In this document: piece after piece, positions 11,835 to 25,204 of the stretch
Layout: each line of letters starts with the position of its first letter
How positions within the stretch are numbered: position 1 is the first letter of the stretch
Assembly (NCBI GenBank): GCA_031421455.1
Contig: JANOOS010000225.1
Span: 1-25,204, forward strand
Length of the DNA: 25,204 bases
DNA from: Nitrospira sp.
Lineage (GTDB): Bacteria; Nitrospirota; Nitrospiria; Nitrospirales; Nitrospiraceae
Reading direction: 5' to 3'
Translations under genes and position numbers: made by a program
Notes under the pieces: generated by a model
Told to the model about the DNA's origin: nothing
Databases searched by the model: none
What the model saw: the letters and a program-made list of their open reading frames with translations, nothing else

Positions 11835-12354
11835 CTACAACAGGAAATTGGTGGCGCTCAGGATGTCGTTGGTCCTGACGTCGATCTGGAAGTCCACCAC
11901 CCTGTCACCGTTGATATCGCCTTGCACGAGATATCCGCCCGCGTTCAAGGTCAGGACGAGCTGGCCGGCAACCCCGCTGAATCCGGACGCGATCACGAAG
12001 GCGTTGTTTCCGACGGCGGCGGTATTCGCGTCGATCTGAGACAGATCGATCTTGTCGCCTTCGGACACGCTGAAGTCATTGATCTTGTCCTGCACCGTTA
12101 CCGTGGAGTCCGAGACCAGGGCGTACTGGAAGGTGTCGGCGCCCAAGCCGCCTGTGAGATCATCGTCCTCGGCCCCGCCGACCAGCACGTCATTGCCGTC
12201 TCCACCGTCGATCGTATCCCGGCCGGCGCCGCCGAAGATCGTATCGGCCCCACCGCCCGAACTGACGTTGTCGTCACCGGCCTGACCGTAGATCGTATCA
12301 TTGGTATTGGCCGTCGTGATGATGTCATCACCGGTGGTTCCCATGATCGATCCT
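11835..12354 (-). other. RTX nonapeptide block and serralysin/T1SS-like C-terminal domain
   Basis: GQAGDDNVS, SGGGADTIF, GGAGRDTID, GGDGNDVLV, GGAEDDDLT, GGLGADTFQ, followed by DKINDFSVSEGDKIDLSQID. Confidence 0.88.
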
Positions 12355-15300
12355 GCCGGAGGCGCTTCCGGTGCGCCAAGCACCGTCACCGTGACGCGTG
12401 CCGTTGAGAACGCACCGCTGCTATCCCTCATGGTGTAGGTGAACGTGTCGAGGGCTGCTCCACTGTCCAGATATTGGAACGCCTGGCCGACGGTATAGAC
12501 CACGCCAGACCCATTGGCTGCGATGGTTGCGGTCCCCTGCAAGCCTGTCGTATCCAGTGAGACGATCGTCTTTGTATCGCCGGCATCCAGATCCGTATCG
12601 TTGGCCAAGACGTTGAGGGCCAAGGCCGCGGCATCCTCGGAGATCGTGAGCCCATCGTTCACGGCCACTGGGCCATCATTGGCGCCAACGACGGTAACCG
12701 TTACAGTCCCAGTGGACTGGGCTCCTTTGCTGTCCTGAATCGTGTAGCTGAAGGTCTCGGTCGCTGGTGCCCCTGCCTTCAGACTCTGGAATGCGTTGCC
12801 GACGGTGTAGACGATGTTACCGCCATTCACCGACGCTGTACCCTGCAGACCGGTCGTATTGATTGCCACGATACTAAAACTGTCACCGGCACTAATGTCC
12901 GCGTCGCTGTCGTTCGCCAGCACATTGATCGTCACCGGCGCGCTGTTTTCAGTGGCCGTGGCGCTATCGGCTGCGGCGACTGGCGTCTGGTTGGTCCCGG
13001 TGACGGTTACCGTGACCGTCGCGGTCGACTGCAGGCCCAGGCTATCCTGCATGGTGTAGGTAAACGTCTCTGTCGCCGTTTGGCCGAACGTCAGATTGAG
13101 CAGCGAACCACCAGCCGTATACGTCACCGCACCTCCGCCCACCGCAATTGTCACCGAGCCTTGCAGGCCGCTGCCGTCGACACTGACAACGGTCTTGGTG
13201 TCGGGGATATCCACGGGCGTCGCGTCAACGACAACGTCAAGCAGATCGACGATCGGCGGCTGTGGCGGGACGACGCGCGTGTCGGGATCCGTGTCGTTAG
13301 CGAGCACGTCGATGGTGAGCGGCGCGCTGTCGGCCGCGACAGTTGCGCTGTCGTGAACCGCAGAGGGCGCGTCGTTCACGCCAGTCACCGTGACGGTCAC
13401 CACACCAGTTGACCCGCCGGCGAGCGTGTAACGGAAGGTGTCGACGCCGACCTCGCCCTGGTTAAGGCTTTGCAATGGCGTGTAGAGGATGCTCTGCCCA
13501 TCCGCGGCGATCGACACCTGGCCGAGCAGACGCGGAAATCCTGGCGCGAACCCGTATTGGGTGTTGCCCGTCGCACTGCCGATCACGAAATAACCGCCGA
13601 ACTGACCGCTACCGTCGACCGAGTCGATCGTCAGGGCACCGCCGGGGTTCGCGTCGTTGGTATCGTTCGCCAGCACGTTGATGGTGATCGGTCCGCCATC
13701 CTCCGCGGCCACCGCATGGTCGGCCACCGCCTTAGGCCCATCGGTCACGCCTGTGACCGTTAGGGTCACCCTCGCTGTCGATAGCGCTCCGGCGCGATCC
13801 CGCATCGTATAGGTGAAGGTCTCGGTGGTGGTTTCCCCCGCTATCAACGATTGGAAGGCCGACCCCGCTGAGTACAGAATACCCGCCCCATTCGTTGCCA
13901 ACCTCACCGTGCCGGACAATCCGGTCCCATCGACCGAGACGATCGTCTTCGTATCGCCCGCATCGGCGTCCGTATCGTTCGCCAACACTCCCAGCAACAC
14001 GTTACTCGCGTCTTCCGTCACGGTCAGCGTATCCACATTGGCCACCGGCGCATCGTTCGCGCCCCTGACGATCACGGTCACGGTGGCTGTCGAGATGGCG
14101 CCGCTGCCATCCTGCACGGTGTAGTTGAACCGTTCCGTCGCCGTCTGTCCTGCCTGGAGGGATTGGAATACATTGCCGGCACTGTAGATCACACCCTGGC
14201 CGCCTTCAGCAATCGTGGCCGTGCCCCGCAGCCCAGTGGTATTCAGTGACAGCACCTGCTTCGTATCGCCAACATCGGCATCACGATCGTTGTTCAACAC
14301 ATTCAACAGGACCGGCGCACTGTCTTCAGACGCGGCCGCGCTATCCCCCACAGCCACCGGCACATCGTTCACGCCTGTCACCGTGACCGTGACCGTCGTG
14401 GCCGACTGGGCCCCTAAGGCATCCACCATGGTGTAGGTGAATTGCTCCGTCGCCGTCTCGCCCGCGCGCAGCTGCTGGAACGCCTGGCCCACCGTATAGA
14501 TGATGCCCATGCCGCCCGGTGCGTTCGCCACCGTACCCCGGAGGCCTGTATTGGTGAGACTGAGCACCGACTTGCCCTGGCCTGCGTCCGGGTCGAGATC
14601 GTTTGCCAATACATCGATCATGACCGGTCCACCATTTTCCGTGGCTGTGGCCACATCGGCCACAGCCACCGGCGCGATATTGTCACTGACAATCACGACT
14701 GTCACCGTGGCGGTGGATGTGACGCCGGCAGAATCTTGAATCGTGTAGCTGAACGTTTCTGTGGCCGTTCCACCCTGCGGTAAATTCAGGAACGCGTCAC
14801 CCACCGTATAGATGAGGCTGGTGCCATCAGGCGCCAGCGCGACCGTGCCCTGCAGGCCGGCCGTATCGAGCGCAACGACTGTCTTGGTATCCCCAGCATC
14901 GGGATCCGTATCGTTCGCCAACATAGTGATCGACACTGGCGCGGCGTTCTTCCCGATGGTGACCTGGTCCGCCACCGCTGTGGGTGCATCGTTCACACCC
15001 GTGATGGTCACGACCAGACTCGATGACGATGTAGCTCCAGCTGCATCCCGCATGGTGTAGAAAATCGTTTCGGTGAGTACTTGACCTGCCCTCAGCGTCT
15101 GAAGCGCTTGAGTCGGCGTATAAACGACACCTTGACCGTCCGGCGCGACCGACACGGCGCCCCGGATTGCCGGAATAGCAGGGGTGACAACGAACGTGGT
15201 GAATGTCGAGGTATTAGCCGACGTAATCACAATTTGAGACGGACGCCCGTTGCCGTCGACTGCGGTCACGGTCTTCGTGTCGCCCGCATCGGGATCTTGG

Positions 15301-24843: not shown

Positions 24844-24877
24844 AGCGCTCTTCCTGTGGTGAAGGGGATGTGACCGA

Positions 24878-25204
24878 ATGAAAATCTACAGCGGCGTGAT
24901 GGGTCTGTTCTTGGTGGTGGGTCTTCTTTGTGCAGAGCCCAGCCAGGCGGCCGAGATGCCTCCGTCGATCCCGCAAGAGATGCCGGTACTCAGGCTGAGC
25001 TTAAAAGATGCCATTGAGGCGGCGCTGGACAAGAGTCCACAGGTACGGTTGTACAAGGAGCGCATCGAAGCGGCGCGCAGCGCCTCGAGAACGCAACTGG
25101 GCGCGTTATTGCCGAACCTGTCGGGCTCCTCCAAGTTCACGAATCAGACCTTCTTTCTCGGCACCATCGGAGGCGCTCCGGTCCGCACCCAACCGTTCGA
25201 CATT
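24878..25204 (+). CDS. TolC-family outer membrane channel (5' partial; missing from the ORF track because it has no stop in the window)
   Basis: My translation: MKIYSGVMGLFLVVGLLCAEPSQA-AEMPPSIPQEMPVLRLSLKDAIEAALDKSPQVRLYKERIEAARSASRTQLGALLPNLSGSS... It has a signal peptide plus the LSLxxAIxxAL...LLPNLS start typical of outer membrane efflux proteins; AAGGGG RBS. Confidence 0.8.
   Translation, partial: MKIYSGVMGLFLVVGLLCAEPSQAAEMPPSIPQEMPVLRLSLKDAIEAALDKSPQVRLYKERIEAARSASRTQLGALLPNLSGSSKFTNQTFFLGTIGGAPVRTQPFDI

What the first reader, a model, noticed from the sequence alone, without database searches (positions are those of the whole stretch)
11835..25204. Candidate non-canonical type-I-like secretion system: SecA paralogue + M50 peptidase + three MFPs + TolC, divergent from a giant adhesin-like substrate
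Seen in sequence: the plus-strand operon GAF-HlyD, RRE-M50-HlyD, truncated SecA, MFP, TolC faces away from a 1.67-kaa RTX/Ig-repeat protein. The genes are closely spaced, with an ATGA overlap at secA-like/MFP. Established: canonical T1SS needs an ABC transporter (HlyB/PrtD) and RND systems need an RND pump; neither is in the window. Inference: the SecA-like ATPase supplies the energy, the M50 and MFP membrane segments form the inner-membrane entry, and the MFPs bridge to TolC for one-step export. From memory, a similar association of secondary SecA_DEAD proteins with T1SS components was reported computationally (Kamneva et al. 2015, Planctomycetes/Verrucomicrobia/Proteobacteria/Nitrospirae; please verify). 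I know of no mechanistic characterisation.
Basis: partly seen in the sequence, partly recalled or inferred. Interest (0 to 1): 0.92.

Follow-up and report, generated by a model that had tools for sequence, protein, structure and literature searches.

The report
Exporter cassette for LEPR-tagged giant proteins
This Nitrospira locus carries a widespread but never-tested gene cassette (three periplasmic adaptors, one fused to a leader-binding membrane protease, a cut-down SecA motor and a TolC-like channel) that across bacterial phyla sits next to huge surface proteins bearing a short N-terminal "LEPR-XLL" tag, so it is probably a dedicated, ABC-transporter-free export route for them.

Summary
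Every domain call and the gene order were reproduced. The contig ends inside the TolC-like gene, so it cannot be extended. Complete operons in close relatives have no ABC or RND gene after TolC.

The cassette is the "secondary SecA_DEAD" locus described by computer analysis in Kamneva et al. 2015 (PMC4452313).

What goes beyond that paper is the cargo:
- In two samples (301 Nitrospirota, 351 Pseudomonadota genomes), LEPR-XLL hits occur almost only in genomes with an M50-HlyD gene (15 of 16 and 52 of 53).
- They usually lie within about 10 kb of it, one tagged giant per cassette.
- The N-terminal domain of the M50 fusion has the fold of RiPP leader-binding domains.

Caveats:
- Some cassettes, and a whole sister clade (one copy in this genome), lack the SecA paralogue.
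- This window's cargo also has a classical RTX end, and the genome has two canonical type I systems.
- The cassette's DUF3467 gene is deleted here.
- Nothing has been tested at the bench.

This scan has noted the same cassette with LEPR-XLL neighbours before on other DNA (152 notes, at least 92 genomes).

The parts
11835..16853 (-). Putative cargo: 1672-aa LEPR-XLL / CARDB / 11x Big_9-cadherin / RTX protein
   Evidence: Pfam and NCBIfam hits. Start at ATG 16853. An orthologue with the same leader is present in G273 (L106).
16689..16853 (-). N-terminal leader: Arg-rich stretch followed by the F-x-L-E-x-L-E-x-R-x-L-L-A-A-D motif. It has no Sec-type hydrophobic core.
   Evidence: NF012209 hit at 16689-16748, 26.1 bits against a cut-off of 17. 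Motif aligned with 24 other cassette-linked leaders. Highest 12-residue hydropathy is 0.78.
11835..12354 (-). C-terminal RTX nonapeptides plus a serralysin-type C-terminal domain (a classical type I secretion signal region)
   Evidence: HemolysinCabind E 3.4e-13. Zn_serralysin positions 339-450 align to residues 1575-1687.
17640..17717 (+). Remnant (last 25 codons) of the cassette's DUF3467 gene. About 277 bp are deleted relative to close relatives.
   Evidence: tblastn 72% identity to residues 86-110 of the L004 DUF3467 protein. DNA alignment and blastn against L118. A DNA contig from run X2 bridges the junction.
17771..19684 (+). GAF-GAF / one TM helix / membrane fusion protein (637 aa)
   Evidence: Pfam GAF and HlyD_3. 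TIGR01730 RND_mfp 105 bits, over its cut-off. TM helix at 368-393. AF2 model pLDDT 84 with two GAF-like modules at 44-146 and 202-314.
19750..21897 (+). RRE (PqqD-like) / M50 intramembrane metalloprotease / membrane fusion protein (715 aa)
   Evidence: Pfam and NCBIfam hits, including daptide_HExxH E 1.8e-51 over residues 18-405. HEFGH and NxxPxxxxDG motifs intact. AF2 model pLDDT 86.8. Structural matches: residues 16-103 to lasso-peptide B1 and TbiB1 leader complexes and to PqqD (Z 9.1-9.7); 142-389 to RseP and SpoIVFB (Z 9.0-9.6); 445-705 to ZneB, MacA, MexA and HlyD (Z 10.6-14.4).
21890..23881 (+). Truncated SecA paralogue (663 aa): NBD1 + PPXD + NBD2 + start of the scaffold helix. It has no wing domain, two-helix finger or C-terminal tail.
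   Evidence: Pfam. Below every SecA and SecA2 equivalog cut-off. Aligns to B. subtilis SecA 34-604 and T. maritima SecA 16-649. Walker A and DEAD motifs are present. A housekeeping SecA lies elsewhere, on C437.
23878..24735 (+). Short membrane fusion protein (285 aa) with an N-terminal signal or anchor
   Evidence: HlyD_3, Biotin_lipoyl_2 and TIGR01730 at 113.8 bits, over its cut-off. Hydrophobic N-terminus at 15-36. ATGA overlap with the SecA-like stop.
24878..25204 (+). First 109 aa of a TolC-family outer membrane factor, cut by the contig end
   Evidence: PF02321 OEP E 3.5e-4. 71% identical to the start of the complete 443-aa OEP that closes the operon in L004.

Best explanation
The plus-strand genes are a member of the conserved 'secondary SecA_DEAD' envelope cassette. 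I read that cassette as a dedicated export-and-processing machine for proteins that begin with an LEPR-XLL leader. Here the candidate is the divergently encoded 1672-aa Big_9/RTX protein.

Shown by the evidence:
- The cassette and LEPR-XLL proteins co-occur and are neighbours across phyla.
- The leader lacks a Sec-type hydrophobic core.
- The M50 fusion has an RRE fold, intact metalloprotease motifs and an MFP.
- The SecA paralogue keeps the ATPase motor and the preprotein clamp but lacks the parts that engage SecY.

Inferred working model:
1. The cytoplasmic RRE domain captures the leader.
2. The SecA-like motor, where present, feeds the unfolded chain N-terminus first into an inner-membrane portal built from the M50 and adaptor transmembrane helices.
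3. The M50 site removes the leader.
4. The three adaptors form the periplasmic duct to the TolC-like channel.
5. The GAF domains gate the machine.

Functionally this resembles a peptidase-containing ABC exporter such as CvaAB-TolC, with the RRE in place of the recognition part of the C39 domain, M50 in place of its cleavage part, and the SecA-like protein in place of the ABC ATPase.

My odds: cassette and LEPR proteins are cognate partners, about 0.85; export through the adaptor/TolC duct, about 0.6; the SecA paralogue is the motor, about 0.5.
For: Conservation:
- The order GAF-HlyD > M50-HlyD > SecA-like > MFP holds in nearly all of 80 loci (Nitrospirota, Pseudomonadota including Pseudomonas, Azotobacter, Mesorhizobium, Methylobacterium and Vibrio, Myxococcota, deltaproteobacterial MAGs, Methylomirabilia). 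No HlyB-type gene is nearby.
- The M50-HlyD family has 4526 representatives at 50% clustering with E <= 1e-30.

Cargo link:
- In five named genomes the best LEPR-XLL hit (1-3 hits per genome, 0 of 14 control genomes) is the start of a 7273-9147-aa ORF that ends just before the cassette.
- Nitrospirota sample: all 11 genomes with the orthologous cassette have an LEPR hit, 7 of them on the same contig within about 10 kb. Of 262 genomes without M50-HlyD, only one has a hit, and it is spurious.
- Pseudomonadota sample: 52 of 53 LEPR-positive genomes are M50-HlyD-positive, against a base rate of 95 of 351. Genomes with three cassettes have an LEPR giant beside each one.
- Of 39 loci with flanks on both sides, 31 have an ORF of at least 1000 aa within 3.5 kb.
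- Ca. N. nitrosa has an LEPR/CARDB protein without RTX directly upstream on the same strand.
- Leader variant tracks cassette clade: LLSAD with the SecA type, MFD(G/A)AA with the SecA-less clade.

Domains:
- RRE, site-2-protease and MFP folds in one chain.
- The first 400 residues are homologous to RiPP leader peptidases.
- SecA anatomy.
- No ABC or RND gene after TolC in complete relatives.
Against: - No experiment exists. Every step of the mechanism is inferred.
- The SecA paralogue is not universal. Cassettes in L075, L094 and L067 lie in genomes with only the housekeeping SecA, and the sister clade, including this genome's C293 copy, has no SecA or GAF.
- No component is a known protein-conducting channel.
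- This window's cargo also has a classical RTX/serralysin-type C-terminus, and the genome has two canonical type I systems (C258: HlyB 1027 bits plus HlyD; C331: PrtD-type plus HlyD), each with a TolC-like match in or beside it on the same contig. It could therefore leave by that route.
- About 45% of M50-HlyD-positive genomes gave no LEPR hit. The short 24-position model and fragmented MAGs may explain part of this.
- Genomes in the samples are related, so the Fisher values overstate the case.
- In this MAG the DUF3467 gene is deleted and the OEP gene is cut by the contig end, so this copy may not be fully functional.
Confidence: 0.6

Rival explanations
1. Two-signal or classical route for this particular protein. 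The 1672-aa RTX protein is exported C-terminus first by one of the genome's canonical ABC/HlyD/TolC systems. The cassette only trims, tethers or regulates its N-terminus, in the way LapG/LapD acts on LapA-type adhesins, or serves another LEPR protein.
For: RTX repeats and a serralysin-type C-terminal domain. Two complete-looking canonical type I systems on C258 and C331. In G273 the orthologous protein is not next to the cassette. A second Nitrospira LEPR protein (L015) also ends in RTX repeats.
Against: Most cassette-adjacent giants have no RTX repeats in their last 350 residues. The N. nitrosa neighbour has none. Three adaptors plus a dedicated TolC-like gene are hard to explain for a trimming function alone.
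Confidence: 0.17
2. Two-step route. The SecA paralogue (or the housekeeping SecA) drives the LEPR protein through SecYEG into the periplasm. The M50 protease acts as a specialised signal peptidase, and the adaptors with TolC carry out only the outer-membrane step.
For: The paralogue keeps NBD1, PPXD and NBD2. Cassettes without it occur in genomes that still have the housekeeping SecA. MacAB-type adaptor systems can take up periplasmic substrates (established knowledge).
Against: The leaders have no hydrophobic core; typical highest 12-residue hydropathy is about 0.7. The paralogue lacks the two-helix finger and wing domain used at SecY. The RRE domain sits at the cytoplasmic N-terminus of the M50 fusion.
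Confidence: 0.15
3. The cassette exports a small ribosomal peptide or a small molecule, and its neighbourhood with giant genes is incidental or regulatory.
For: The RRE-M50 half resembles RiPP leader peptidases (daptide_HExxH, YydH/LiaK). The adaptors score as RND-type efflux adaptors.
Against: No conserved small precursor ORF is seen in 16938-17770. The genome-level and locus-level link to LEPR-XLL giants is very strong and one-to-one. The leader motif co-varies with the cassette clade.
Confidence: 0.05

Closest known systems
'Secondary SecA_DEAD' conserved locus of Kamneva, Poudel & Ward 2015 (PLoS One, PMC4452313), e.g. Methylobacterium extorquens AM1 META1p2402-2399
   Same: Same four core genes in the same order (GAF-HlyD, M50-HlyD, SecA_DEAD protein, HlyD/biotin_lipoyl protein), sometimes followed by OEP. 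No ABC gene. Nitrospirae are listed among the carriers. The paper makes the same proposal, that SecA_DEAD is the ATPase and M50 the membrane part.
   Different: The paper names no substrate and does not mention LEPR-XLL, the RRE domain or DUF3467. The biological role is stated there as completely unknown. Added here: the cargo link, the RRE fold, the SecA-less sister clade and the SecA-less variants.
Type I secretion systems for RTX proteins and giant adhesins (HlyB-HlyD-TolC, LapB-LapC-LapE)
   Same: Periplasmic adaptors plus a TolC-family channel. Huge repetitive, often calcium-binding cargo encoded next door. Likely export without a Sec signal.
   Different: No ABC transporter in or near the cassette. 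The adaptors fail the type_I_hlyD cut-off and score as RND-type. There are three different adaptors. The conserved signal is N-terminal and probably cleaved, not C-terminal.
Peptidase-containing ABC exporters of leader-bearing peptides (CvaAB-TolC for colicin V; PCAT family)
   Same: By analogy: an N-terminal leader recognised and cut by a protease that is part of the inner-membrane exporter, with an adaptor and TolC completing the duct.
   Different: No C39 peptidase and no ABC domains. Recognition is by an RRE, cleavage by an M50 metalloprotease, and the ATPase (when present) is a SecA paralogue. Cargo is thousands of residues long rather than tens.
RiPP RRE-fused intramembrane HExxH proteases (daptide protease NF041824; YydH/LiaK NF058609)
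   Same: Residues 18-405 align end to end with the daptide protease model (E 1.8e-51). The architecture is the same, an RRE plus M50.
   Different: The score is below the equivalog cut-off (175 against 300). The protein is fused to a membrane fusion protein and embedded in an envelope-spanning cassette. Its likely substrates are giant proteins.
Accessory SecA2 of Gram-positive bacteria and mycobacteria
   Same: A second SecA-family ATPase dedicated to a small set of special substrates.
   Different: Below all SecA2 equivalog cut-offs. Truncated after the start of the scaffold helix. Encoded with adaptors and TolC in diderm bacteria. No SecY2 or Asp partners are present.

Membership tests
Kamneva 2015 secondary SecA_DEAD locus | Truncated second SecA_DEAD protein in addition to the housekeeping SecA | tested here: met
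   663-aa paralogue in the window. Housekeeping SecA is on C437.
Kamneva 2015 secondary SecA_DEAD locus | Co-encoded GAF-HlyD, Peptidase_M50-HlyD and HlyD/biotin_lipoyl proteins in a conserved order | tested here: met
   The order is the same in nearly all of 80 loci.
Kamneva 2015 secondary SecA_DEAD locus | No ABC transporter in the locus | tested here: met
   None in the window. None within 10 kb in complete relatives L004, L006 and L015. The window itself ends inside the OEP gene.
Canonical type I secretion system | HlyB/PrtD-type ABC permease-ATPase encoded with the adaptor | tested here: not met
   Absent from the cassette here and in relatives. Present only at unrelated loci C258 and C331.
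Canonical type I secretion system | Adaptor of the type_I_hlyD subfamily (TIGR01843) | tested here: not met
   66.5 and 29.1 bits against a cut-off of 208.65. TIGR01730 RND_mfp is passed instead.
Canonical type I secretion system | Uncleaved C-terminal signal with RTX repeats on the substrate | tested here: inconclusive
   Present on this window's protein but absent from most cassette-adjacent giants.
Housekeeping SecA (TIGR00963 / PRK12904) | Full domain set including the helical wing domain, two-helix finger and C-terminal region; score over the equivalog cut-off | tested here: not met
   598 and 629 bits against cut-offs of 800 and 814. The alignment stops at B. subtilis residue 604.
Gram-positive/mycobacterial SecA2 (TIGR03714, TIGR04221, TIGR04397, NF012136) | Score over the equivalog cut-off | tested here: not met
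   491, 469, 545 and 416 bits against cut-offs of 930, 725, 1085 and 1100.
LEPR-XLL domain proteins (NF012209) | N-terminal LEPR-XLL motif over the model cut-off | tested here: met
   20.5 bits and 26.1 bits against a cut-off of 17. The motif aligns with 24 other leaders.
RiPP recognition element (PqqD-like) domains | Winged-helix fold of three strands plus three helices, matching leader-binding RRE structures | tested here: met
   AF2 strands at 24-50 and helices at 52-97. Z 9.1-9.7 over 82-89 residues to 6jx3_B, 5v1u_A and 5sxy. Pfam PqqD is just below its cut-off, 21.2 against 23.4. Leader binding itself was not tested.
Peptidase family M50 (site-2 proteases) | HExxH and NxxPxxxxDG motifs in transmembrane helices; site-2-protease fold | tested here: met
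   HEFGH at 210 and NANPLLRFDG at 304, both in invariant alignment columns. Z 9.0-9.6 to RseP and SpoIVFB. The Pfam score, 23.0, is below its cut-off of 27.2.
Daptide-type RRE-HExxH protease (NF041824) | Score over the equivalog cut-off | tested here: not met
   175.5 bits against 300. It shares the architecture but is not an equivalog.

The most novel reading that the evidence does not exclude
The cassette is a distinct, ABC-independent secretion pathway of diderm bacteria. It recognises a cleavable RiPP-like N-terminal leader (LEPR-XLL) through an RRE domain and exports some of the largest known bacterial proteins (up to more than 15,000 residues) N-terminus first through an M50/adaptor/TolC conduit. 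A wingless SecA serves as an add-on motor in one clade.
Probability: 0.45. Interest if true: 0.9.

Novelty: new variant of a known kind. Interest (0 to 1): 0.78.

Why it matters
How LEPR-XLL giant proteins leave the cell is unresolved. These include 8,000-15,000-residue proteins of Pseudomonas, Vibrio and Mesorhizobium, and the giant symbiosis proteins of Chlorobium chlorochromatii. A 2026 preprint (10.64898/2026.03.19.712371) still says such proteins lack known transport signals.

The data here tie the tag to one specific, widespread machine and give a concrete model of leader recognition and cleavage. Cultivable, non-exotic carriers exist (Methylobacterium extorquens AM1, Azotobacter beijerinckii, Pseudomonas sp., Marinobacter), so the model can be tested directly.

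If confirmed, it would add a fourth kind of inner-membrane partner (after ABC, RND and MFS) to TolC-type tripartite systems. It would also give a new job to a SecA paralogue and to RiPP-type leader recognition.

Tried and rejected
- **Extending the window.** The window is the whole contig, and the rest of the OEP gene is not in the assembly.
- **ABC gene hidden downstream.** Rejected for relatives with complete operons.
- **Small precursor-peptide gene in the 830-bp intergenic region.** Only unconvincing short ORFs were found, plus the DUF3467 remnant.
- **RNA elements.** No Rfam family matched in 11000-25204.
- **C-terminal RTX as the shared signal of cassette-linked giants.** Rejected, because most lack it.
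- **DUF3467 function.** No solved relative by sequence, no informative paper, and the Atlas returned only DUF3467 clusters.
- **Literature linking LEPR-XLL to the cassette.** None found in the held library. Subscription journals and the text of the NCBIfam entry could not be read.
- **Metatranscriptome contigs.** They lie on the giant gene and in short pieces on the operon. This is only weak evidence of transcription, since contigs of an RNA library may contain DNA or come from related strains.
- **Transmembrane topology of the M50 part.** Helix count and parity could not be settled from hydropathy or the AF2 model.
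Full report
**1. The observation**

The window is a complete 25.2-kb contig of a 90%-complete Nitrospira MAG.

- The minus strand carries a 1672-aa protein (ATG 16853). It has an LEPR-XLL N-terminus, CARDB, eleven Big_9/cadherin repeats, RTX nonapeptides and a serralysin-type C-terminal domain.
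- The plus strand carries GAF-HlyD (637 aa), PqqD-like/M50/HlyD (715 aa), a SecA paralogue (663 aa), a short adaptor (285 aa) and the first 109 residues of a TolC-family protein.
- The genes are tightly packed: a 66-nt gap, an 8-nt overlap, an ATGA overlap, and then a 142-nt gap that holds a dispersed repeat.
- The SecA paralogue starts at ATG 21890, which gives the 663-aa length conserved in more than 100 relatives.

**2. What is already published**

- They note the absence of an ABC transporter.
- They propose SecA_DEAD as the ATPase and the M50 protein as the membrane component.
- They state that the biological role is completely unknown.
- They name no substrate.

**3. The downstream-ABC test**

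The contig cannot be extended, and the remainder of the OEP gene is not in the assembly.

In close relatives with long contigs the operon ends with a complete 443-471-aa OEP gene followed by unrelated genes. These relatives are L004 (SecA paralogue 85% identical) and Ca. Nitrospira nitrosa L006. A HlyB query finds nothing within 10 kb of the cassette in those loci, and only weak, distant ABC-ATPase matches in a few of the other loci.

The own genome does have two canonical type I systems, but at unrelated loci. C258 has a HlyB-type ABC (1027 bits, over its cut-off) plus a type_I_hlyD adaptor. C331 has a PrtD-type ABC (partial, at the contig end) plus a type_I_hlyD adaptor. A TolC-like match lies in or beside each on the same contig.

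**4. Conservation**

A HMMER search over 1.84 billion cluster representatives gives 4526 RRE-M50-HlyD relatives at E <= 1e-30, nearly all about 715 aa long.

I fetched 80 genomic loci with a profile of this family. Nearly all show the order GAF-HlyD > M50-HlyD > SecA-like > short adaptor. They span:

- Nitrospirota
- alpha-, beta- and gamma-Proteobacteria, including Pseudomonas, Azotobacter, Mesorhizobium, Methylobacterium, Vibrio and Marinobacter
- Myxococcota
- deltaproteobacterial MAGs
- Methylomirabilia

The OEP gene is adjacent mainly in Nitrospira-like loci. A 110-aa DUF3467 gene directly precedes GAF-HlyD in about 30 loci.

**5. The cargo link (the main result)**

- **Neighbouring giants.** Giant ORFs flank the cassette in 31 of 39 loci that have at least 4 kb on both sides.
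- **Visible N-termini.** Where the N-terminus of such a neighbour is visible, it shows a basic stretch followed by F-x-[LM]-E-x-L-E-P-R-x-L-L-S-A-D and no hydrophobic core.
- **Five named genomes.** I searched five whole genomes with the NCBIfam LEPR-XLL model: Pseudomonas, Motiliproteus, Mesorhizobium, Vibrio and Marinobacterium. It gave 1-3 hits per genome and none in 14 control genomes. The best hit was always the start of a 7273-9147-aa ORF that ends immediately before the cassette.
- **Nitrospirota sample (301 genomes).** All 11 genomes with the orthologous cassette have an LEPR hit, 7 of them on the same contig within about 10 kb. Of 262 genomes without any M50-HlyD gene, one has a hit, in a 15-aa frame.
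- **Pseudomonadota sample (351 genomes).** 95 have M50-HlyD, 53 have LEPR hits and 52 have both. Fisher p is 2e-34, overstated because the genomes are related.
- **Complete chromosomes.** The pairing is one-to-one at locus level. For example, the three cassettes of G302 and of G311 each have their own LEPR giant beside them.
- **Ca. N. nitrosa.** It has a 927-aa LEPR/CARDB/Big_9 protein without any RTX end directly upstream on the same strand.

No paper in the held library makes this link. A 2026 preprint notes LEPRxLL on the Chlorobium chlorochromatii giant proteins, says they lack known transport signals, and mentions a separately acquired secA.

**6. Anatomy that bears on mechanism**

*M50 fusion.* The AF2 model is confident (pLDDT 86.8). 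An exhaustive structural comparison resolves three domains:

- Residues 16-103 match the RRE proteins of lasso-peptide systems solved with their leader peptides, and PqqD (Z 9.1-9.7 over almost the whole target).
- Residues 142-389 match the site-2 proteases RseP and SpoIVFB (Z 9.0-9.6).
- Residues 445-705 match ZneB, MacA, MexA, EmrA, AcrA and HlyD (Z 10.6-14.4).

HEFGH and NxxPxxxxDG are intact and invariant in the family. Residues 18-405 align end to end with the daptide leader-peptidase model, although below its cut-off.

*SecA paralogue.* It keeps Walker A, the DEAD box, the preprotein cross-linking domain and NBD2. It ends about 50 residues into the scaffold helix, at B. subtilis residue 604. 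It therefore lacks the wing domain, two-helix finger and C-terminal tail. This is the part of SecA that forms the motor and clamp, without the parts that work at SecY.

*GAF-HlyD.* The AF2 model (pLDDT 84) shows two GAF-like modules, one transmembrane helix and an adaptor.

*Adaptors.* Two of the three pass the RND-type model (TIGR01730). None reaches the type I HlyD model's cut-off.

**7. Most likely mechanism**

I read the cassette as a leader-dependent exporter.

1. The cytoplasmic RRE binds the LEPR-XLL leader.
2. The SecA-like motor feeds the unfolded chain into an inner-membrane portal made of the M50 and adaptor helices.
3. M50 removes the leader.
4. The adaptors and TolC complete the duct.

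The partnership between cassette and leader is shown by comparative genomics. Everything after that is inference. The nearest functional analogy is a peptidase-containing ABC exporter with TolC (CvaAB type), with every inner-membrane part replaced.

**8. What weakens the SecA part**

- Five of the 80 cassettes lack the SecA gene in line. Three of those genomes (Marinobacter suaedae and two MAGs) have only the 910-932-aa housekeeping SecA.
- A sister clade of M50-HlyD genes (26-29% identical) has no SecA or GAF at all. It is present in 28 more Nitrospirota genomes of the sample and in many Pseudomonadota genomes.
- This genome's copy of that clade, on C293, reads short adaptor > 467-aa adaptor > M50-HlyD > giant DUF4347/cadherin protein. 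The giant's leader ends in L-E-S-R-I-M-F-D-G-A-A.
- In the three other Nitrospirota examples whose leaders were read (L107-L109), the neighbouring giants of that clade likewise end in M-F-D / F-D-G rather than L-L-S-A-D.

This co-variation of leader type with cassette clade supports specific recognition. It also shows that the M50-adaptor core, not SecA, is the constant element.

**9. What is special or uncertain in this window**

- The cargo candidate carries both signals, the LEPR leader and a classical RTX/type I C-terminus, and canonical type I systems are available. Its route is therefore ambiguous.
- The DUF3467 gene is reduced to its last 25 codons by a deletion of about 277 bp. It is intact in the three closest relatives. 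A 3084-bp contig from a sediment DNA run bridges the junction, though this may be the sample of origin.
- The orthologous giant gene in G273 is not next to the cassette, so the divergent arrangement here is not fixed within the genus.
- Metatranscriptome contigs at 95% identity or more cover parts of the giant gene and short pieces of the operon. This is weak evidence of expression.

**10. Verdict**

The cassette is a published but uncharacterised kind, and this locus is a further member.

Two results go beyond the published description. One is the strong, multi-phylum link to LEPR-XLL giants, which this scan has also noted repeatedly on other DNA. The other is the structural support for an RRE-M50-adaptor fusion.

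I class it as a new variant of the TolC-type tripartite exporters, with high interest because the hypothesis can now be tested directly.

Noticed in passing
window 17445-17717: The DUF3467 gene that precedes GAF-HlyD in about 30 of 80 loci, and in the three closest relatives, is reduced here to its last 25 codons by a deletion of about 277 bp. The upstream DNA is retained. A lone full-length DUF3467 paralogue (57% identical) lies on C268:1860-2105, with no cassette gene nearby.
   Followed up: yes
window 24740-24846: The gap between the short adaptor and the OEP gene holds a palindromic element of about 100 bp. It matches more than 70 places (both orientations counted) across the MAG's contigs, so it looks REP/MITE-like. 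It may contribute to the fragmented assembly.
   Followed up: partly
G000 contig C293 (locus L114 340-8943): A second cassette without SecA or GAF: 266-aa adaptor, 467-aa adaptor, 762-aa M50-HlyD, then a giant protein of more than 1381 aa with DUF4347 and cadherin domains. The giant's leader ends in L-E-S-R-I-M-F-D-G-A-A. The same sister clade sits next to LEPR-like giants in other Nitrospirota and Pseudomonadota.
   Followed up: partly
G000 contigs C258 (L009) and C331 (L008): Two canonical type I secretion operons: a HlyB-type ABC at 1027 bits plus HlyD, and a PrtD-type ABC cut by the contig end plus HlyD. A TolC-like match lies in or beside each on the same contig.
   Followed up: partly
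L075 (Marinobacter suaedae), L094, L067: These are cassettes of the SecA type by sequence but have no SecA paralogue in the locus or anywhere in the genome. In L075 an LEPR-XLL giant follows the short adaptor directly.
   Followed up: partly
C-termini of giants in L037, L055, L073, L074, L083, L039, L004, L015: Several cassette-adjacent giant proteins share a short motif about 25-40 residues from the C-terminus: W-[VL]-x-[DE]-[FYL]-[VL], followed by a basic or polar tail. This could be a second sorting or anchoring signal.
   Followed up: no
window 6490-7175 (minus strand): A two-gene pair of a nucleotidyltransferase (Polbeta/NTP_transf_2, 104 aa) and an NTase_sub_bind/HepT-like protein (124 aa). 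This is the usual MNT-HepT toxin-antitoxin arrangement.
   Followed up: no
window 2501-5044 and 10076-10522: ComEC (Competence + DUF4131 + metallo-beta-lactamase, 847 aa) and a ComEA-like helix-hairpin-helix protein lie among housekeeping genes (folP-like, glmM-like, ndk, tyrS).
   Followed up: no
window 11947-12762 and 15773-16872: Sediment metatranscriptome contigs (runs X17, X18) match the 3' and 5' parts of the giant gene at about 97% identity, with the same set of differences in both runs. This points to a closely related strain whose copy is probably transcribed.
   Followed up: partly
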